Assembly: GCA_046563655.1 (NCBI GenBank)
Contig: CM102285.1
Span: 8,246,001-8,310,000 of the forward strand
Length of the DNA: 64,000 nucleotides
Direction of reading: 5' to 3'
Source of the DNA: Yuukianura sp. NJ FZ-2021
Lineage: Eukaryota
Both the position numbers and the translations under genes were made by a program. A model generated the notes under the pieces. The model did not search any database, was not told the origin of the DNA, and saw only the letters and a list, made by a program, of their open reading frames with translations. Below are positions 16,042-51,584 of the stretch, piece by piece (position 1 is the first letter of the stretch; every line of letters begins with the position of its first letter).

Positions 16042-19000
16042 TCACGTTTTCATTTGCCATACCATTAGGGTTGTGCATTGCTTTGATTCAGCCTCCGAAC
16101 TGTTGATGAATTGATCATGGTAATTCTGGGATCTCATGTTGATGTACCCTCGACCTCCAACTACCACAATCAGAGTCCGTTCAGACCGTGGCTTGAGTCT
16201 ATTCTTGCTAGTGGTAGTTGTGCCTCGGTTAATCGTTTTCTTTGTTGTTCCGGGAGTGGGTGGTGGTGGATTTGTACTGGGGAGATTTGAGGTAGATGTA
16301 GAGGACACTGTGGGTTTCAAGGACTGGTCAATATCCAACTGTCCAACAGGGGTAGGTGTATTAGGTGTATCGGTTCTCTCTGTGGCTCGACTGTTTCTGG
16401 AACCATGTCCAAGTCCAACACTTTCGTCACTGGAAGCAGAAATTTTGGAGTCTACGGACCAATTTGAAAGGTCAAGCGACCTTGGACGACTCATGCGCAT
16501 CTTGATACGACGATCCAAAGTACTGATTTTTGCATCCAAGGCAACTAGCTCTGGGTCACTTCGTCTCAACGCATCGTAAAGAGGATCCAGGAATCGACCT
16601 TCATCTTCCAGCCCTCTGACGTTAATCAAGTTACCGTAGAGACCATACACATCAGAATCGATACTAAACCGGTTGAGTGGAATTGGACCACCGCGCGGTA
16701 AAGTTTTGCAGTTTCGATTCATGCCGCTCTCTCCCCTAGAATTCTTTTTCCGAAGTACTACAAGCGTTTTGTGGAATCCGCCAAGTGAGGGCAAAAGATC
16801 GTTAGTGCGACTGCTTAGCCCCAAACCACTGGCAATGCTCTGAAGCGGAGAGCTTGAATGGGAACCTTGCTTAGAAGACTCGTTGAACGAACTGCTGTTG
16901 CTTAAGCTAGGACTCGCTGATTCTGATTTAGTTTCAACCTCTTTTCCATTCACATGGTCTCGGAAATTCGTTCTCGGCGGCGTTCGGTACTTTTCGTCTT
17001 CATCCAAACCGCTCTCAGCGTCTTTGTGTTCGCTAAATGTCACTGGAGTGACAGATTTTTGTGATTTTTGAGTCGAAGGTGTCTTTGGCACGGTAGAGAT
17101 GTTGGCTGGAGATGGAGTTGGAACAGATGAAGGTGCTTTGGTAAGTGGCATGAGGAATGTGACTGGTCCAAAGTAGCCGTGGTAAGATACATTGGCTTTT
17201 CCAGTATTGATGATGGGCACTCCCTCTAGCCGCGGAAGTGGAATCGTCAGAACCACGCCCAAGTTGGTTCCGATCCAGAGCCAGCCTTTGTGGGCCATGA
17301 GGCAAGTGACATAGCATCCCTTCTGTCGCCGGTATGAATCACGTACGGTACGGTAAACGCTGGGAGCAATGCTCACATCTTGAAGATGTTGAAGCGATTC
17401 TAGATGGTAGAGGCAAACTGTTCCACTTTCATGGGTTGTAATCCAGAGACCAACGCCAGAACATGTCATGTGAGAAATTGGACCGTTGTGATGAGTTAGA
17501 ACAACACTTTTCTGAAATTGGAAATAAAATTTTTTAAAATGATGCGTGTTTTCAAAATTTTCGAGGGTAATTTGAAATGAACTTACTTCGATTGTGTGCG
17601 TTTTTGCGTCGATGATCACAACTGCATTTCCACATGAGGCGTAGATGTGCTCCCTGGCTCCAAATACGGAAACGATTTTTTCCGAACCCAGGCTGAGTAG
17701 TTTCGAAGGTTCGAGTGGCTTTGGATTTTGAATTTGCGTAAAAACTGCTAAAGTGCCGTCGCTCATTCCTGCGTACACTGTGCTGCCGAAAAGTGAAAGT
17801 TTCAACACGCTTTCAGTCAACAGGCATTGGCTAATGTGACCTTTCTCTGTATCCGATGGATCAAATATCATGACCCTGAAAATAAAATTCAATTTTTAAA
17901 ATGAATTCAAAAAACTGAAGGTTAATTTTCAAAAACGAGAGGTTTGCTCCTTAATACTTTCCACCTTCCACATATCCACAAACATTCCAGAAATTGTGAG
18001 AAATTTTGAAATTCTGCGGCAAATTGATATGAATGTGACTTACTTCCGACTTTCAGTTGCCATCCAGACATGACCTGAGACGAACAGCAGGTCATTGACC
18101 TTCTCTTCCACCAAGTCAAACGACGTTACTTCTTTGAGAACGTTTTGTTGAGATCTGTATGAAGTTATGTGACTTGAAAATCCGTCGGTACAGCTCACCC
18201 AAAGATAGTCCAAGATTTTAGAGCGTCCTGTGGGACTCACTGAAGTATGCGTGAAGAAGCAGCCTGCTTTCACCTGAAATTCAAGAAAACTTTTAGTCAA
18301 CTCAGGACTTAAATTTTTCAAAATTTTAAATTTTTTTCTCAAACCGTATTGAGATGTGGTGAGCGACAGAGTGGCAGGGATCTAACGAATAAGGGAAGCC
18401 GATGTTGCGGATACGGCGATTCCTGTGGTAAGTCCCAACCTGGACTGTTGTTTGGATCCAATGCCAATTGCGCCAATCGGAGTTCTTCAATCCACTCGTT
18501 CCGAGCTGCAGGACTTGGCATTTGAAATACAACTTTCTCCCGATTAGTTCCAGTTCCAAGCAAAAGTGTGAGACAGGAAGAGTCAAAATAGGAAATTTGT
18601 TCGTCACGACATCTAATTTGGTGTTGGATTTCAAGCAGCAATTCTTTGATGTAAGATTCTGTGAGTCCTTCATAAGTTGACTTGAGTGTTGAAATTAATT
18701 CTGAGATTCGACTTAGAACTGAGTAGTCGTGCATGAGGCACTGCATTTCTTCTAAGAGACAAAGCGACTGTTGCGTCTCTTCGTCTGGAGTTGACGCAGT
18801 GCCTCCAGCTTCATTCGAACCAGTTTTTTGGCGTCCGAAACTAACGTATCGACTCATTGTTGGCGATATTGAGAGGTCTTCGACTTCAATTTCTCTGACG
18901 GGGTAAGACCACTTGAAAACACTTTTCTCCACTTTCCCATTAAGGTTGACCGTAGAAGACTGTTGGGCTGGAGCTTTGTCTGTATTGATGTAACTGTTTC

Positions 19001-22000
19001 GTCTTCCAGCCCTTTCTGACGAAGAGGTCGAAGCGCCACTGGAACTCATGGTAACACAAATCAGCATGTCGTTGAGGAGGAGGAGTTTTCTCGTTTTGGA
19101 CTTGGCTACTGTTCCTCCATTGCTATCAAACTCTAACTGCGTCACCAAATCTTGACGCAGAAGAATTCGATTGGGATCGTCAGCAATTGACCTCAAAAGG
19201 ACAAATTTCCCACCGCCAATGGACTTGATTGTTTCTCGAAAAGCTTGGTATTGCTCAGACTCGCGTTTTCTTTCGTTCAGCATGGCTGCTAGGCTCTCTA
19301 ATTGTGTCAATGCCAGTTGCAAAGACATTCTGTCATGATGATCCTTCGGCGTGTGTTTGAGCAAATCCTGCGCACAACATTTCAAAAGTTTTGAAACATG
19401 CAATTACAGTAAATTGAGAGGGGAATGAAATTCCAGAACCATCGATTTACCTGCAGAAGGAGGATAAATTGTGGGAATCGTTGAACTGGTTTGACCATGA
19501 GTCCAAATAGAGACAACCGATCATGCGCAGTCATCTGCTTCACTTTGAGGAACTCTGCAAAGGCACTTTTTCGACGAGCTTCCGCTTTGGCTGTTTCCAT
19601 GGCTTGTCCAAAGTTATTGATGAATTCAGAATAGACGTCCAGAACGAGGCTCTTTGAGAAGGAAGCCACGAATACATCTCCAATTTTCTCATCAGTGTCC
19701 CACTTACGGATGTATTCGGCCAGAGCTATTCGGAACAGCGAGTGACACTGAAGGATTTCTGGAACGCGATGGAACACCGTGGCAATTTTTGAGTGACTCA
19801 ACATTACAGGATGGCTGCACTCCAGTGGTTTCTTGTATTCCTGTGCCAAATTTAAAATTCAGTCATTTAGAATCCAATCTGACCGTTTTTCATCAAATGG
19901 TCTGCAAATTAATTACTTCCTTGTCACTCAAAGTCAGAAATTATGCAAACAGCTTCGTTTCTGGTATCAACATGTCAAAAAATTTTGAAACTCGTTCATC
20001 AGTATCAAGAAAAGGTGTTTGAACTTTGAAATGAAAAAAATTGCAAATCGAAGACGGTAAAGATATTAGGAATTGACGACTTGAAGATTTCGAATGCGGT
20101 TTAAATGATTTGTGGCGAATAATCAAGCCTCCTTAACACCATGAAAGGCAAATCATTCCGCTTCGGTGAGTTCAAAAGTGACATTAATTGCGACTTGCCA
20201 AAATGCGAAAACCAGACACGACTCGAAATGCTTTCGGCTTTGATTTGCCAAACCTTATGCCGTTTCAGGTGCACACTGACATTGAGTGAGAGTGAAGTAA
20301 AAATTAAATATAATTTTGGTTTTAAAATTAAAACTAAAGAAATTTTCATGTCATGAACCCACTTTGGCTTACAGTTGTAGCATAACATCGCTCCCGAAAT
20401 GAAATTTTATACAGTATGTACGCGTGAAAATAAAATTTCAAAGTTTTGTGAGACGTTGCTTACGTTGACTAGTCGCTGAAGTGCTGAGACGTAGTTGTTC
20501 TCACTGTGAACAATCGCTGCGACGATGTGTCTCCGTGTAATTTGCTCTGGAGTTAGGTCTGGCGGTGGGACTGGAAGCGTAGGGGGCAGCACTGTTCTCC
20601 TCGGCCAGTAGCCTTCTTCGTCTTCCATGAAGCTCAAGCGCTTAAGATCTTCTTCGCTTAGTAAAGGCAGAGTGCTGTTCCGATTGTTTCCAGCGTTAGT
20701 TCCGGCGCTTGCGCCGTCCACTGTTGTGGTGCTGCCGCCATGATGATTCTTCCTCAGAGAAAACCACCGTAACAGACGATTCTCCTCTTCCATATTAGTT
20801 TTTGAAAGTGTCTTAGACTGTGTCCAGGACTCTCTCCATTTGTCCTTGATCCCTGATCCACGACGGAACTTTGGGGCTTTCGGGATATGATCTGGAACAA
20901 TTGGACTACTGTGGGAAACAGAAACATAAATGTCAAAATATATTTATTTATATAATATAAAATTAAATAAAGAATTCGTGAGGAAGAAATGCTACTAGGA
21001 ACAAAAGCCTACAGCAGGGATCGCTGTTATATTTTTTAGGTCAGAAATTAAACAGATTGCTGAGGGAAGGAAGCTGGCGGACGCGTGTTAAACTCTCAAA
21101 CTTCAAAGTGATTTAGCAGTTTTCATCTTTTCTTGGATGTGACGTAGCTTGAGTAACTAACGATTAGGAATACTTTTTGCTATCCTCAAAACTAACCTTG
21201 GGAAGAGCAGAATATGAATTAGCGTCAAGGCCTTCCATCTTCATTACTTTGAAACCATACTATAAATAATATACCTCAATCAGCTAATAGTGTGGGATGC
21301 TTTTACATTCACCTGAATTTAAACACTTTACCTACGATTTACGACGTGAGTCACACTTTAAATCTAATTCTAATATTAGCACAACTTTCGATGCACAAGT
21401 TGAACACGTTTTCTGAACTGTTTAGATTCCAAAGTGCACTAAATCCCTGCTGGCTTCTTAGCAGAAAGATACGAGAGACAATGGAAATGTAACGAGGCAT
21501 TCTAAAAAGTTATGTCAATGAGGAATAATTAAGTTGTAAAAGTAATTTAGTAAACCAAACATTGGAAAAGTGAAGGCAAAGAAGGTGGAGGAGATTGTCC
21601 GCTGCTGGCAAAGTTTTGTTTAGCTTTTGTAAGTGGATGTCGATTTGCAATTTGCAAAGTGTGACCCCATCCCTAGCTCAAGCTTAAACTAGAGTGCTCA
21701 TGGTCGTAAAGCAATTTTAGCACACTTGGAATGATTAATTTTTATGATAATCAACTCTTCACTGCTTTAAACCTCTCTCAAGCTTCAAAGCATTTGCTGA
21801 CATTTGCCAAACGAAAAGAAAATGTAAATGACAAGGTGAATTCCTACACTTTCCTCTGTGTACAAGTTATGCGCCGCTCATCAAAAAATCACTGACTCCT
21901 AAAATTGCTTTTTTGCAACCTTAGCTGCTTGGAAGTTCGATTGTCATTTAATCTTCATTTTCATGAAACGCTATTTCATGCACTGACGCTGATGGATAAG

Positions 22001-37181: not shown

Positions 37182-39765
<2,584 letters not shown>

Positions 39766-40743: not shown

Positions 40744-46005
<5,262 letters not shown>

Positions 46006-46824: not shown

Positions 46825-49800
46825 ATGGCTTCTGTTACATCATTTCCTCTAGTAATTCTAACTGCCCTGCTAATTTCCAATTTGTGCTTGACAACCGTGG
46901 GAAAAGTGTTCAAACCATGCGAATTGGGTCGCATCCTAATGGACCAAGGAATTGAATTTGACCGAATTGGAGACTGTAAGTTCGGCTTCATTTTGGATGC
47001 TACAGAACAAAACTTGATGGAATTTTTGGAAAAAGTTTCAATATTGATGCTTATGACGTCTGGTTTTTGGAATTGATTTATTCGGTATTCGTCACTTCTC
47101 AAAGGGATCTGCCTGGCTAGAGCAGTTAGCCTTTACAATTCATCCATGATAGGGGGTCAATTTACGAATGCGAACAAGAACATGGAATACGGAATCTTTC
47201 AGGTAGGCTTCACAACAATTTTTTAAAGTTTCAGGTTTTAGTTGAAACCGCCATTTCATATTGGACATATTTCTTAGATTAGCAACTACTACCACTGCTA
47301 CGATGAGTATAAAAAGAAGCTCAATAACTGCGGTCTAAACTGTACAGGTTAGGAAAACAATTGACTACTAATAAATCAGAAAGTAATTTTATAATCAGAA
47401 ATAATCAGAAAGTATTTTCATAATTTCAAACAAATAAAATGATTTTTGTAACTTTGCATGAAAAACCTCAATTTCGATACTGACGCAGTAAAATTTTGAT
47501 TTGTGCCAATATTTTAGATCTGATTGACGATAACTTGGAAGATGACATTCGTTGTGCCAGATTACTGTACACGCAAAATCGGCGGACGTTTAGAAGTTGG
47601 GGACCAGCGTTTGGAAAACATTGCAATAGCACTGACGGCAATTCCAAGTATTATAAAGGTTGCGATTTTGCAAATGGTACGGCGTATTTCCAATTTCTCA
47701 CGAACCAATGGGAAACGGACTTACGATTAGTTTTAAGGAAATGTTTTTAATTTCCTATCAATGTTTTCAGGAATGAAGCCAAAAATTGAGGGCGAGCACG
47801 AAACGAATTCAACAGTAGTCATCACCAGTTTGAGTCCAGGTCGCATTATCGTTAGTTGTCGAGTGTATGGCACCCTTCCTATCGAAGTTAGCTGGACTAA
47901 AAACCGAAATGTAAGGATATTCGATTTCAATTTCGTCGTAATTCCGTTAAGCCAAAGCCAATGTAACTTTTAAAACTTCGAAGACGACGCTTTATAGTTT
48001 ATACAGAAATTTACTGCTTCTTTGTATTCATGCCAGGCTTACAGCAGTTCAGACCCGGATTTCAAAGTACACACCACGGTCGATGACTTAACGAACTCCA
48101 CCGTGTCAACAGTATTTCTGCGTCATGTTAATGTTACGCTCACCGAGTACGTGACGCTGTTCACTTGTATTGCCCAAAACCAATACGGAAGTGACCATGC
48201 CGACTTTCTGGTCAAAATTATTGAGCCACCGGACAAAACAGACCCGCCAGATTCCATTGCCAGGAAGGCTGTGGAACTCGGACTAACATTTTTTGTGACA
48301 TCCGTCATAATCCTCACGGTGGCTGTAGTCGCTTATAAACGCGCTGTTAAGGAAAAGGTAAATATTTGTATTACATTTCAACTCATTCACTGTAGCTAAT
48401 GTAACTTCATTATGAAAGTTCGTAACAACTTTAAAAAAAACTAAAAATTAAGCTTTTGTTAATTCGTAGGGAGGTCTTACTGCCGCAGAAATTGAGAATT
48501 TTAAAAATGGCGACCACTCAGAGGATAAAAATTTGAATTCGTCCGAATACATTAACGAAGCTCTGACTTTCACGCCTTACAATCCGGAGTTCGAAATTTT
48601 AAGAAGCGAATTAGAAATAGGTATGGAAAATCGGTTCGTGAAATCAAGCAAGTTTTCTTAATGCAAAAAAATTGTTTAGAAAAAAGAGATCTCCTCGGTT
48701 CTGGTCAGTTTGGTTTGGTTTACAAAGGGAAATTCAATGGCAAAAACGTAGCCGTCAAAACGCTCAAACCAAATGCAGATAAAATGTACCTCAAAGCATT
48801 GCTTTCAGAACTCAAAGTTCTGATATATGTCAAAGGTCATGGAAATGTGACTGAAGTTATTGGCGCTTACACTCAAGAGTTGGATAAAGGTAACAGACTT
48901 TACATTAGTAGCTTTAAACAGATCGTTATTTATTGCATATCCTGAAATATCTCGTTGAAAAGCGGAAAACCTCGCCTAAATGCCAGACATTTTGCTGAGG
49001 TATTTTTGGAAATCATTTTTAGCGGGGATATTTTGGGAGAAATACTTGTCATGATGGTTCATTCTTATTAAAATTACGTGTTTTACCATCTAGGTGTACT
49101 TTTGGTCGTATTGGAACTTTGTCCGCTGGGAAGCTTACTCAAATACCTCCAAGCGTACAGGCTAAACAGCCATGTCAGTTCCACTTCCGATGCGAAGCGA
49201 ACTTTGTCAGAATCAAACAACGAAGATACCGTAGAAGACGCTACCGTCATTGACCAACGCCTAATGGTAGCGTGGAGCTATCAAATTGCAAGTGGAATGG
49301 ATTATTTAACGACCAAGAGAGTGGTTCATGGAGATTTAGCTGCAAGAAATATTTTACTGCGAACGCCTCAACTTATTAAAATTACGGATTTCGGACTTTC
49401 CAAAAAATTGTATACCTATTCAACGTATGCGTATGGAGAGGTAGGAAAACGCGCAAGAATATCATCAAAAGGCATTTTGTCACTTGAAAGATAATTGAGT
49501 GGTTTACAGGGACCAATACCTTGGGAATGGGAAGCACCCGAGACGCTAAGTTACCTAAGATTTTCAGCGGCTTCAGATGCTTGGTCATTTGGGGTAACGC
49601 TATGGGAGATATTCAGTTTTGCTCAAAAACCGTATTCAGGTCTGTCTTGGACCCCCGATTTTCCAAATCAGTTGGAAAATGGACTTCGCCTTACGAAGCC
49701 GAATGACGCTTCCGATTCTATGTATGATGAGTTGCCAATTACTCGATTAGATTCGGAGCTTTTTAATCAAGATTAAGTGTTCTGTTGACTATAGATTCAA

Positions 49801-50037
49801 TATCATGGAAAACTGCTGGAAGTTTAACCCAACAGATCGCCCAACGTTTAAATTCTTAAGAGAACTTTTGTATCTAGAGGTTGCCAAATTTTCAACAGTG
49901 GTAAGATGTCGGTACAAAGTAACTTTTGAAATTCTGTCTAACTTAACCGATTTTATTTAATTTTTTAGCGGTATGTTGATTTTACTCCGGACTCTGCTCC
50001 AGTGTCCGAAGATTACCGAAACGTGGGATTTGTGTAA
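46825..50037 (+). CDS. Receptor tyrosine kinase with c-type lysozyme-like + Ig ectodomain and PVR/PDGFR-like non-RD kinase (677 aa)
   Basis: Twelve GT-AG exons in one frame (2034 nt): 46825-46975, 47105-47202, 47278-47347, 47518-47676, 47771-47910, 48037-48357, 48470-48620, 48680-48889, 49094-49440, 49510-49721, 49795-49900, 49969-50037. Signal peptide MASVTSFPLVILTALLISNLCLTTVG. Lysozyme domain KVFKPCEL..WICLA..YGIFQISNYYHC..NNCGLNC..DDIRCA..W..HC..GC with 8 Cys. Ig domain VSCRVYG..EVSWTK..FTCIAQNQYGSD. TM LGLTFFVTSVIILTVAVVAY. Kinase LGSGQFG, VAVK, SELK, HGDLAARN, DFG, APE, SDAWSFGVTLWEIFS, CW..P..RPTF. Confidence 0.88.
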
Positions 50038-50123: not shown

Positions 50124-51584
50124 TTAATTTTCTTGTAGGAAATTGTGGACAACATCAAAAAACTGTTGGTGATGCGTAATATGTATGCTGTGTTTTCCGC
50201 CTTCCATGATCATCAATCTACAAGAAAAACAAAACAAGCAAAAAAATGAAAGCAATAGTTTTGAAAACTATTTGAAAAAATTCACCAATTACCAATTCAG
50301 ATCACCGTTTTTGAGTTCATTAAATTCGGAACTTGTTACCTAGAGTTGGCGATATGTTTATGTAGAAAATGAGCATGTTTCTCATGAACGATCAAATCAT
50401 CGGACCCATGCAAAATAAAAGTGGGACATGTAATTTTGTTCTTTGCACAAAACTCTCCACCGTGGTGTGTGTAAATCCGCTGCAAGATATTTAACCAGGT
50501 TTGCCACGATTCCAAGAAGAAATTTTGACCGAATTCTGCAATCATGGCGTCCTGCATCTTCCCTTTCCAATTTTCTGTGTTTTTGAACCCTGCAAATTAT
50601 AATGGAAACTATTTTAAAAATAAGTGCACAAAAAAAAAACTCTGTAAAAAATCCAAACAGTGCTATCCGCACATTCTAACTTGTCCGCGTCCTCTTTGGC
50701 TACATAAGAAAATACACCCCATACAACCAGCTTTCGAATCTTCTCGCAGTGTTGTGATGCCATGAGCAAAGCGGATAATCCTCCACCGCACCAGCCCAAC
50801 ACCGAATACTTATCGTGACCGAGTTCCTGCAACGAGATTTAGAATGTGTTGACCAATTGTATTAGCAATTAGCAATATATTTCCAATAGGTAAGTTAGCA
50901 CATACCTTCAGTAGGGTCAAAGCCATATCTACATCTTCCTGAATACTATGATCTGTAAAAATTCGTTTGGGCGGCCGACTCTGTCCGAAACCTACAACAT
51001 ACATAAATCTTATTTAATAATTTTGTTTGTTTTCCATTAAATCCCGGTTTACGTTAATTGTTAACCTATTGATTATTCGCGTCGTAAGAAATATTTGTTT
51101 ACCTGGCTGATCCCAGGCATAAAATGTGTAGTAATCCGAGTGTTGCTCCATGTGACCCACGAGGTCCTTTAGATGCATTCGCATTGAACCTAGTAATCAA
51201 AATCAAAAACAATTTGGAACTAAAAATCGACGAAACATAAAAGTGCCAATACTACTGCTATGATTGTAGCACCTACATATATGCATTTATAATAATTAGA
51301 ATTTCATATTTCGTAGTAAAAATTGTTTGTTTCATACCAATAAGTCCAGGGTAGCAAAAGACCGCATGTGGCCCGTTACCAACTTTGATGAAATTGACAT
51401 TGTAAATTCCAATTTGAGTTCTTCGGTAGTACTGCGCAAGAGGGTCAACTTTCTCCAAAGAGTGGAACTCGGTGTCTTTAATTGCAAGACGCCATGAAGA
51501 ATGGACGTCTGTCACAAGTGACCTTACTAAACTACGCAAAGGAGACGAACGGCAAAATTTAGGAATTGAAGTTACAACAAGCAT
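50124..51584 (-). CDS. BPHL: BPHL/valacyclovir hydrolase-like alpha/beta hydrolase, copy 1 (305 aa; GWCGG elbow)
   Basis: Exons 51338-51584, 51103-51189, 50906-50991, 50673-50826, 50340-50589, 50124-50217. Motifs WDQPGFGQSRPPKR, GWCGGG, CPTFILHGSDD, GGKHSIH. Arg/Ser-rich N-terminus resembles a mitochondrial presequence. Confidence 0.88.

What the first reader, a model, noticed from the sequence alone, without database searches (positions are those of the whole stretch)
47105..47676. The receptor's lysozyme domain looks catalytically dead but keeps a lactalbumin-type Ca2+ loop
Seen: WICLARAVSLYN aligns with the WxCxAxxESxxN motif, so the general acid (hen lysozyme Glu35) is Val. NMEYGIFQI aligns with STDYGILQI, so Asp52 is Glu. 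The Trp62/Trp63 substrate-stacking positions read YH. The segment DLIDDNLEDDIRC matches the Ca2+-binding elbow of alpha-lactalbumin and calcium-binding lysozymes (KFLDDDLTDDIMC type, three Asp ligands retained). Inference: a pseudo-enzyme repurposed as a ligand-binding module that holds rather than cleaves glycan, as expected of a receptor ectodomain.
Basis: partly seen in the sequence, partly recalled or inferred. Interest (0 to 1): 0.8.

Follow-up and report, generated by a model that had tools for sequence, protein, structure and literature searches.

The report
Dead lysozyme domain on receptor kinase
A springtail-type gene encodes a cell-surface tyrosine-kinase receptor whose outer tip is a lysozyme-like domain that has lost its catalytic acid but kept a calcium-binding loop, so it most likely binds its ligand rather than cutting it.

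Summary
Window 46825-50037 (+) carries a clean 12-exon gene (all GT-AG, 687 aa): signal peptide, one GH22 (c-type lysozyme/alpha-lactalbumin) domain, one Ig domain, a transmembrane helix and a tyrosine kinase. In the GH22 domain the general-acid Glu is Val (GTT 47125-47127). The Asp52-equivalent is Glu, the Trp62/Trp63 positions read Tyr-His, and all eight cysteines are present. The loop D81-D90 matches the Ca2+-binding loop of canine and equine milk lysozymes without a gap.

The nearest relatives found are insect proteins made of 3-10 tandem GH22 domains. Of their 124 domains, 55 lack the Glu/Asp pair and 106 keep the three-Asp triad. So a dead site plus a Ca2+ loop is a recurring state of an arthropod subfamily, not a peculiarity of this gene. 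Only His at position 63 (0 of 124) is unique.

What I found nowhere else is the fusion to a receptor tyrosine kinase, which has a non-RD 'HGD' kinase.

Loss of muramidase activity is well supported. Glycan binding is only an inference and is weakened by several cleft changes. There is no RNA evidence, no orthologue and no 3-D model.

The parts
46825..46902 (+). Start codon and signal peptide (26 aa), exon 1
   Evidence: ORF and hydrophobic stretch read. The cleavage site before mature Lys1 is my inference; no predictor was run.
46903..46975 (+). GH22 domain, mature residues 1-24 plus the first base of the Trp25 codon (rest of exon 1); includes Cys6
   Evidence: The intron splits the Trp25 codon after its first base.
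47105..47202 (+). Exon 2: GH22 residues 25-57, with Cys27, Val32 (general-acid position) and Glu52 (Asp52 position)
   Evidence: Pfam Lys PF00062, profile positions 29-56, E 0.059; PDB alignment; column counts.
47125..47127 (+). Codon GTT = Val32, at the position of the catalytic Glu (hen lysozyme Glu35)
   Evidence: No variant at this codon among those listed (158 variants were not shown).
47185..47187 (+). Codon GAA = Glu52, at the position of the catalytic Asp (hen lysozyme Asp52)
47278..47347 (+). Exon 3: GH22 residues 58-80 plus the first base of Asp81; Tyr62-His63 at 47290-47295; Cys64, Cys75, Cys79
47518..47676 (+). Exon 4: GH22 residues 81-133; Cys93, Trp108, Cys116, Cys129; ends in phase 1 and joins the Ig exon
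   Evidence: Pfam Lys, profile positions 82-115, E 0.012; PDB hits.
47518..47546 (+). Ca2+-binding-type loop Asp81-Asp90. Proposed side-chain ligands: Asp84, Asp89, Asp90. Proposed backbone ligands: Asp81, Asn86.
   Evidence: Ungapped alignment to canine and equine milk lysozymes; triad DDD in 106 of 124 relatives. Ligand roles are recalled from the solved Ca2+-binding lysozymes.
47771..48267 (+). Short linker and one Ig-like domain plus stalk (exon 5, 47771-47910, and the first part of exon 6, from 48007; intron 47911-48006)
   Evidence: Weak Ig_3/I-set hits on exon 5 (E 0.06 and 0.11). Cys...Trp...Cys pattern read.
48268..48336 (+). Transmembrane helix (23 hydrophobic residues followed by basic residues)
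   Evidence: Read from the sequence; no predictor was run.
48470..50037 (+). Juxtamembrane region, tyrosine-kinase domain, C-tail and stop. Exons 48470-48620, 48680-48889, 49094-49440, 49510-49721, 49795-49900, 49969-50037. Motifs: GSGQFG, VAVK, HGDLAARN (non-RD), DFG, WEAPE.
   Evidence: PK_Tyr_Ser-Thr PF07714 on 4 of 4 kinase exons; motif coordinates. The exon 10 donor was moved to 49721.

Best explanation
The segment encodes a catalytically dead GH22 (c-type lysozyme family) domain. It forms the membrane-distal tip of a single-pass receptor tyrosine kinase: signal peptide, GH22, Ig, TM, kinase.

Shown: the domain keeps the lysozyme scaffold (8 Cys, the GxxQ strand, Trp108) and the Ca2+-binding elbow, and it lacks the general-acid Glu.

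Inferred mechanism:
- Extracellular Ca2+ occupies the Asp84/Asp89/Asp90 site and stiffens the helix-loop-helix that forms one wall of the cleft.
- The remodelled cleft binds a GlcNAc/MurNAc-type glycan (peptidoglycan or chitin fragment) without cutting it.
- A multivalent ligand brings receptors together, and the non-RD (HGD) tyrosine kinase signals.

Odds: about 0.7 that it is a non-enzymatic binding module of the receptor. Within that I slightly favour a glycan ligand over a protein ligand, which gives 0.4 for this full statement.
For: Gene model. All 11 introns are GT-AG and the ORF is open. Exon 4 (phase 1) joins the Ig exon 94 bp downstream. The downstream part has no signal peptide of its own.

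GH22 membership. blastp E 6e-19, 8 of 8 Cys, and a PDB link through P0163 at 2.3e-25.

Dead active site. Val sits at the Glu column, which is Glu in 78 of 124 relatives. Glu sits at the Asp column. PMC5104373 (passages) says both residues are required, that SLLP1 with substitutions at both positions is inactive, and that Asp52->Glu keeps <3% activity. No other Asp or Glu falls at a cleft-lining position of the alignment; this is my reading.

Ca2+ loop. The triad is kept in 45 of 55 relatives that lack the catalytic pair and in 61 of 69 that have it. That points to a structural role that does not depend on catalysis.

The gene is under constraint. After the exon 10 fix, 21 of the 40 listed variants lie in coding sequence: 14 are synonymous and 7 are not. 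All four listed coding indels keep the frame (-3, -3, and a +1/-1 pair 3 nt apart). A contig of a second organism label (X4) spans exons 2-4 with 9 differences in 893 nt.

Kinase. It looks functional and is non-RD. From recall (Dardick and Ronald 2006), non-RD kinases are over-represented among pattern-recognition receptors.
Against: - No RNA run holds the locus, so the exon 4-5 junction is unconfirmed.
- No orthologue with this architecture was found. 0 of 113 kinase relatives list PF00062 or align to residues 1-160, and 0 of 8 springtail relatives have a Lys hit at E<=0.1.
- The glycan cleft is altered. Trp63 is His (0 of 124 relatives). Subfamily Glu100 (107 of 124) is Gln, His101 (114 of 124) is Asn and Ala107 (118 of 124) is Ser. 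There is a 6-residue insertion in the beta-hairpin and a 4-residue deletion before Trp108.
- An N-x-S sequon sits at Asn36, beside the cleft. It is also present in 47 of 124 relatives.
- Known dead GH22 proteins (alpha-lactalbumin, SLLP1) bind proteins.
- No 3-D model could be made.
Confidence: 0.4

Rival explanations
1. Same receptor and same dead domain, but the GH22 module binds a protein or another non-glycan ligand. This would resemble alpha-lactalbumin binding galactosyltransferase, or sperm SLLP1 binding an egg-surface partner. The ligand could be a secreted host factor or a microbial protein.
For: The cleft changes listed above: Trp63->His in 0 of 124 relatives, and loss of the subfamily-conserved Glu100, His101 and Ala107. 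The domain is only 25-37.5% identical to any relative, median 30%. Dead GH22 proteins with known partners bind proteins (PMC5104373 passages for SLLP1/LYZL4; lactalbumin recalled).
Against: Gln57, Ile58, Trp108 and the Tyr62 typical of the subfamily are kept. Nothing identifies a partner.
Confidence: 0.3
2. The lysozyme-like exons and the Ig-TM-kinase exons are not, or not always, one product. Exons 1-4 would make a secreted lysozyme-like protein by reading into intron 4 (stop at 47748-47750). On this view the fusion is a gene-model artefact or a minor isoform.
For: The exon 4 frame stays open for 24 codons into intron 4 (ORF 47496..47750). There is no RNA evidence. No other Lys-kinase protein was found.
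Against: The gap is only 94 bp, with a good donor and acceptor and matching phase. The first ATG ORF covering the Ig exon starts 'MFSGMKPK' and has no hydrophobic signal, so the receptor would not reach the membrane without exon 1. GH22 proteins normally stop 1-2 residues after the last Cys; here the frame runs on.
Confidence: 0.12
3. The GH22 domain is a decaying relic with no binding role, kept only as a spacer or cap on the receptor, or the whole gene is a young pseudogene.
For: Several positions that are conserved across the subfamily are lost, and no orthologue is known.
Against: All 8 Cys and the Ca2+ triad are kept. The ORF and splice sites are intact. Listed coding variants are 14 synonymous to 7 non-synonymous, and coding indels keep the frame. 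In the lysozyme exons the listed variants are one synonymous Ile change and one polymorphic codon (Arg36 of the precursor).
Confidence: 0.1
4. The domain is still a glycosidase and uses another acid (for example Glu52, or a residue brought in by the insertion).
For: Glu52 is a carboxylate in the cleft. No structure is available to exclude a substitute residue.
Against: From recall, no active GH22 enzyme without the Glu35-equivalent is known. PMC5104373 passages call Glu35 and Asp52 completely conserved in active non-testicular lysozymes. No acid falls at the aligned cleft positions.
Confidence: 0.03

Closest known systems
Ca2+-binding c-type lysozymes of dog and horse milk (PDB 1EL1, 1QQY, 2Z2E, 2CWI, 2EQL)
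   Same: Best solved-structure matches of exon 4 (E 0.0011-0.0048). The loop has the same length and the same Asp/Asn pattern, and the Cys and Trp108 positions match.
   Different: Those are soluble, active muramidases with the Glu and Asp pair. This one has Val and Glu, has His at the Trp63 position, and is tethered to an Ig-TM-kinase.
Insect multi-GH22-domain proteins (e.g. Hermetia illucens XP_037905664.1, Lutzomyia longipalpis A0A1B0CTG4 'lysozyme', Calliphora vicina XP_065358918.1, Onthophagus taurus XP_022900216.1)
   Same: Closest sequence relatives found: 25-37.5% identity over the whole domain and blastp E down to 6e-19. They share the Ca2+ triad (106 of 124 domains), Tyr62, Ser59, and frequent loss of the catalytic pair (55 of 124).
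   Different: They are strings of 3-10 GH22 domains per protein. None aligned to the model outside its GH22 domain; their own Pfam content was not scanned. This gene has a single domain on a receptor kinase. His63, Gln100 and Asn101 are not seen or are rare in them.
Mammalian sperm lysozyme-like proteins SLLP1/SPACA3, LYZL4, LYZL5
   Same: GH22 proteins with substituted catalytic residues and no bacteriolytic activity, used for binding. LYZL5 also has Glu at position 52 (PMC5104373, passages).
   Different: Those are secreted or acrosomal vertebrate proteins with no membrane kinase. A Ca2+ triad was not reported in the passages I read.
Alpha-lactalbumin
   Same: A non-catalytic GH22 protein with a Ca2+ elbow that acts by binding a partner (recalled).
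   Different: It is mammal-only (PMC5104373 passage). No lactalbumin chain is among the 22 PDB hits of exon 4. It is not a receptor domain.
Springtail and crustacean 'VEGFR-like' HGD tyrosine kinases (Orchesella cincta, O. dallaii, Folsomia candida, Macrobrachium)
   Same: Nearest kinase domains: 34-40% identity over the whole domain and 36-45% on exon 9. They share the HGDLAARN motif and a kinase insert, and some have Ig ectodomains.
   Different: 0 of 8 tested carry a lysozyme domain. Several look like fused tandem kinase models.
Functional analogues: plant LysM receptor kinases, Drosophila PGRP-LC, bacterial PASTA kinases (all recalled); archaeal kinases with dead GH23-like ectodomains (earlier notes e1-5120159, e1-4515197)
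   Same: A cell-wall-glycan-binding or ex-hydrolase module placed outside a membrane kinase or receptor.
   Different: The folds and kinase classes are unrelated. None uses GH22 or an animal tyrosine kinase.

Membership tests
GH22 / Pfam PF00062 (c-type lysozyme / alpha-lactalbumin fold family) | Significant sequence match to family members over the whole domain | tested here: met
   The per-exon Pfam scores are below the 27-bit cut-off (14.1 and 16.3 bits; exons 1 and 3 gave nothing). The spliced domain gives blastp E 6e-19 against insect GH22 domains. One of those (P0163) hits 279 PDB lysozyme-family sequences, the best at 1.3e-25.
GH22 / Pfam PF00062 | Eight cysteines in the family's positions (four disulfides) | tested here: met
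   Cys6, 27, 64, 75, 79, 93, 116 and 129 fall in columns that are Cys in 119-123 of 124 relatives.
GH22 / Pfam PF00062 | Lysozyme fold in three dimensions | not testable with these tools
   The structure tools take only contiguous window translations. The domain is split over four exons, so no model was made.
Active c-type lysozyme (muramidase) | General-acid Glu (hen Glu35) | tested here: not met
   Val32, codon GTT at 47125-47127.
Active c-type lysozyme (muramidase) | Asp at the second catalytic position (hen Asp52) | tested here: not met
   Glu52. This column is Asp in 73 and Glu in 8 of 124 relatives.
Active c-type lysozyme (muramidase) | Bacteriolytic activity | not testable with these tools
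   Needs a Micrococcus lysis assay of the recombinant domain.
Ca2+-binding lysozyme / lactalbumin Ca2+ site | Three Asp side-chain ligands at i, i+5, i+6 in the loop between the third-last and the following Cys, with unchanged loop length | tested here: met
   Asp84, Asp89 and Asp90 align without a gap to the canine and equine loop. The spacing matches the three Asp positions cited in PMC3688608 (passage).
Ca2+-binding lysozyme / lactalbumin Ca2+ site | Measured Ca2+ binding | not testable with these tools
   Needs ITC, a Tb3+ or 45Ca assay, or a thermal shift with and without EDTA.
Alpha-lactalbumin proper | Closer to lactalbumins than to lysozymes; mammalian | tested here: not met
   0 of 22 PDB hits of exon 4 are lactalbumin. 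The window is springtail-like.
Receptor tyrosine kinase | Signal peptide, a single TM helix and a cytoplasmic Tyr-kinase domain with the catalytic motifs | tested here: met
   PF07714 matches 4 of 4 kinase exons (E 1.4e-9, 5.9e-24, 2.9e-19, 3.6e-4). Motifs were located. The signal peptide and TM helix were read by eye only.
Receptor tyrosine kinase | HRD arginine (RD kinase) | tested here: not met
   The motif is HGDLAARN, shared with the nearest springtail and crustacean kinases. Among the 113 hits there are 17 HGD, 92 HRD and 3 HCD motif instances.

The most novel reading that the evidence does not exclude
This is the first animal receptor tyrosine kinase whose ligand-binding head is a lysozyme-derived pseudo-enzyme. 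It would be a soil arthropod's direct sensor of peptidoglycan or chitin fragments, wired to a non-RD kinase. That would make it a new class of animal pattern-recognition receptor, convergent with plant LysM receptor kinases and with PGRP-LC. It would have arisen when a GH22 module from the Ca2+-loop-bearing arthropod lysozyme subfamily was shuffled onto a PVR/VEGFR-like receptor.
Probability: 0.25. Interest if true: 0.85.

Novelty: new variant of a known kind. Interest (0 to 1): 0.58.

Why it matters
Non-catalytic lysozyme-family proteins are known: lactalbumin, the sperm LYZL proteins, and many domains of insect multi-lysozyme proteins. A dead active site is therefore not new in itself.

What is new is the placement. 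A single such domain sits at the tip of a receptor tyrosine kinase. If the splice junction and glycan binding are confirmed, animals would have a kinase-coupled cell-wall sensor built from a hydrolase fold, a design so far tied to plants and bacteria.

There is also a side result. The three-Asp Ca2+ site, which the passages I read describe as occurring in a few mammals and birds, is present in 106 of 124 insect GH22 domains sampled and in this springtail domain. That bears on how old the Ca2+-binding branch of the family is. The sample was selected with a query that contains the loop, so the frequency is biased upward.

Tried and rejected
- Word-indexed protein search with exon 4 against longer proteins: 1 candidate, 0 hits.
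- Whole genome of the window: not held.
- Sequencing runs: 5 holders, all DNA contigs; no RNA holder listed. The splice junctions could therefore not be checked. Laying the runs showed no joints, as expected for DNA.
- Rfam on the whole window: 0 matches.
- Second copy or paralogue in the window: none.
- Full HMMER search with exon 4: 31 of the 53 hits are WD40-repeat proteins. I treat these as false positives summed over repeats and dropped them. A 52-aa query cannot reach significance on a single-domain relative, so missing single-domain or receptor-type relatives proves little.
- Earlier notes of this scan: nothing for this genome or this sequence.
- Literature: searches listed no paper on a GH22 domain in a receptor kinase, or on Ca2+ sites in arthropod multi-lysozyme proteins. 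I judged this from listings of titles and abstract starts only. PMC13736114 has 0 occurrences of 'kinase', 'calcium' or 'transmembrane' in its main text; its supplements were not opened.
- The first version of exon 10 (donor at 49730) was rejected. A common variant would put a stop in it, and the shorter exon scores higher against 6 of 6 kinase relatives.
Full report
THE GENE

The finding's span (47105-47676) is the middle of a + strand gene that I rebuilt from the raw sequence. It has twelve exons and all introns are GT-AG, 59-204 bp long. The reading frame is open from ATG 46825 to the stop at 50035-50037.

I moved the donor of exon 10 from 49730 to 49721 for three reasons:
- A common variant (49725 T>A) would create a stop in the longer exon.
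- The same variant turns GTATGA into the stronger donor GTAAGA.
- The shorter exon raises the score against 6 of 6 nearest kinases.

The product is 687 aa:
- signal peptide (26 aa);
- one GH22 domain (mature residues 1-133; exon 1 from 46903, plus exons 2-4);
- a short linker;
- one Ig-like domain;
- a transmembrane helix (48268-48336);
- a tyrosine kinase.

Pfam on single exons gives:
- Lys PF00062 on exon 2 (E 0.059) and exon 4 (E 0.012), both below the family cut-off. Exons 1 and 3 gave nothing.
- Weak Ig hits on exon 5.
- PK_Tyr_Ser-Thr on all four kinase exons.

The window holds no second copy.

THE ORGANISM

No genome is held for this window. Two lines of evidence point to a springtail:
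- The neighbouring ARHGEF10-like exon is 71% identical to Orchesella cincta and 70% to Allacma fusca, against 48% or less for insects and crustaceans.
- The nearest kinases are also springtail proteins.

So the window comes from a springtail that is only distantly related to the annotated ones. This weakens any statement that no orthologue exists.

CHECKING THE OBSERVATION

Exon 2 alone aligns only weakly to Musca lysozymes (E 0.79 and 1.1), with Val opposite the catalytic Glu and Glu opposite the catalytic Asp.

The full HMMER search with exon 4 gave 53 hits:
- 31 are WD40-repeat proteins. I dropped them as repeat-summed false positives.
- 22 are insect proteins built of tandem GH22 domains. 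The named ones are from Hermetia, Eurosta, Lutzomyia, Calliphora, Topomyia and Onthophagus; the rest are unnamed.

blastp of the spliced model against these 22 matches its residues 26-155 at 27-37% identity, with E down to 6e-19.

I cut 124 domains out of the 22 proteins and aligned them with the query. Column counts:
- Val32: Glu 78, Gln 22, Ala 10, Val 1.
- Glu52: Asp 73, Ser 16, Tyr 11, Glu 8.
- Tyr62: Tyr 93, Phe 19, Trp 1.
- His63: Trp 118, His 0.
- The eight Cys columns: Cys in 119-123.

One relative, P0163, aligns over its full first domain to canine milk lysozyme at E 2.3e-25. Its Glu and Asp sit on the catalytic pair of the solved enzyme, which anchors these columns.

The Val codon is GTT, two changes away from any Glu codon. 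No variant at it appears among those listed, but 158 variants were not shown.

THE CA2+ LOOP

Exon 4 hits 22 distinct PDB sequences at E<=10, and all of them are named lysozyme. The best six are four canine milk lysozyme sequences, 5xuw and horse milk lysozyme. Next come human lysozyme variants 1i22 and 2lhm/3lhm, which I recall to be engineered Ca2+-binding mutants.

The query stretch from Ile83 to Arg95 aligns without a gap to the canine loop. This places Asp84, Asp89 and Asp90 on the three Asp residues, and Asp81 and Asn86 on the two backbone-ligand positions. The ligand roles are recalled from the equine and canine structures. The i, i+5, i+6 spacing agrees with the passage in PMC3688608.

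The loop is not special to this gene. Among the 124 insect domains the triad is Asp-Asp-Asp in 106. It is kept in 61 of 69 domains that have the Glu/Asp pair and in 45 of 55 that lack it. The site therefore looks like a structural feature of this arthropod subfamily that does not depend on catalysis.

One caveat applies. The 22 proteins were found with a query that contains the loop, so the frequency is biased upward at the level of proteins, although all their domains were counted.

IS THE GENE ALIVE, AND IS IT ONE GENE?

No RNA run is available. DNA contigs of four runs under two organism labels cover the locus.

Of the 40 best-supported variants listed, 21 are coding after the exon 10 fix: 14 synonymous and 7 non-synonymous. 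The four listed coding indels keep the frame: -3, -3, and a +1/-1 pair 3 nt apart. In the lysozyme exons the listed variants are a synonymous Ile change (47151) and a polymorphic Arg36 of the precursor. A further 158 variants and 26 indels were not shown, so this is only indicative.

For a single gene:
- The 94-bp interval between exons 4 and 5 has consensus splice sites and matching phase.
- The Ig-kinase part has no signal peptide of its own.
- Exon 4 has no stop where free lysozymes end.

Against certainty: the exon 4 frame runs 24 codons into the intron before a stop, so a secreted isoform by intron retention cannot be excluded.

WHAT IT PROBABLY DOES

Without the general acid, the domain cannot work as a GH22 muramidase. 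PMC5104373 (passages) states that both residues are required, that substituted SLLP1 is inactive, and that Asp52->Glu keeps <3% activity. The hen lysozyme Glu35 mutagenesis results are recalled. No other acidic residue falls at an aligned cleft position (my reading).

The scaffold, the Ca2+ elbow, Gln57, Ile58 and Trp108 are kept. I therefore read it as a Ca2+-stabilised binding module at the tip of a receptor.

Whether it binds glycan is open. The evidence that the cleft was remodelled:
- His replaces the nearly invariant Trp63.
- The subfamily's Glu100, His101 and Ala107 are Gln, Asn and Ser.
- The hairpin carries a 6-residue insertion.
- The 101-104 region is 4 residues shorter.

I put a glycan ligand slightly ahead of a protein ligand because of the fold's ancestry and the soil habitat, and I mark this as inference.

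The kinase has all catalytic motifs but reads HGD instead of HRD. It shares this with its nearest springtail and crustacean relatives (the word-based search favours hits that share that motif). From recall, non-RD kinases are typical of pattern-recognition receptors, which fits the sensor reading but does not prove it.

COMPARISON WITH WHAT IS KNOWN

Dead GH22 proteins are established, and here they turn out to be common among insect multi-lysozyme domains. The finding as worded is therefore a new member or variant of a known kind.

The fusion to a receptor tyrosine kinase was not found anywhere else:
- 0 of 113 kinase relatives list PF00062 or align to the model's first 160 residues.
- 0 of 8 springtail relatives have a Lys hit.
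- None of the 22 GH22 relatives matches the model beyond the lysozyme domain.
- Five literature searches listed nothing on it (listings only).

Two earlier notes of this scan describe archaeal kinases with dead GH23-like ectodomains. They show the same design idea with unrelated parts, and I did not test them.

LIMITS

- The spliced protein could not be given to the structure or large-database tools, so there is no 3-D model.
- The large searches used single exons.
- There is no expression evidence.
- There is no orthologue.
- Ca2+ binding and ligand binding are untested.

Noticed in passing
Relatives P0115-P0167 (22 insect multi-GH22 proteins), not in the window: 106 of 124 GH22 domains in insect tandem-lysozyme proteins carry the three-Asp Ca2+-binding triad, and 55 of 124 lack the Glu/Asp catalytic pair. 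The papers I read treat Ca2+-binding lysozymes as a vertebrate matter. The sample is biased by the query used.
   Followed up: partly
window 49327-49350; P0002-P0013, P0021, P0023: The kinase is non-RD (HGDLAARN). The same HGD motif occurs in the nearest springtail (Orchesella, Folsomia) and prawn (Macrobrachium) 'VEGFR-like' kinases, which suggests a pancrustacean non-RD tyrosine-kinase subfamily. Several of the springtail models hold 2-3 kinase domains and look like fused tandem genes.
   Followed up: partly
window ~38790-39419 and ~44666-46005 (+): Two beta-tubulin genes lie in tandem about 6 kb apart, with nearly identical large exons. The second ends about 800 bp upstream of the receptor gene.
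   Followed up: no
window 49722-49727: A polymorphism at 49725 (T>A), seen in two of the four runs laid (X3 and X4), changes the exon 10 donor from GTATGA to GTAAGA. Under the longer exon model it would be a stop codon, which is how the donor was corrected.
   Followed up: yes
window 46830-46870 and 49233: There are in-frame or compensated indel polymorphisms in the signal peptide (+1/-1 pair, -3) and in the kinase insert (-3). Overall the locus is highly polymorphic between contigs of the same sample.
   Followed up: partly
window 16042-19849 (-): Large exons of an ARHGEF10-like RhoGEF (DH, PH and beta-propeller parts). They are 71% and 70% identical to Orchesella cincta and Allacma fusca and 48% or less to insects, which places the window in Collembola.
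   Followed up: partly
window 50336-51004 (-): ORFs that look like exons of an alpha/beta-hydrolase gene converge on the 3' end of the receptor gene. An AATAAA overlaps the receptor's stop codon region.
   Followed up: no
output: A 52-aa lysozyme fragment drew 31 WD40-repeat proteins at E down to 7e-17 through summed weak repeat matches. This is a warning for short queries against repeat proteins.
   Followed up: yes
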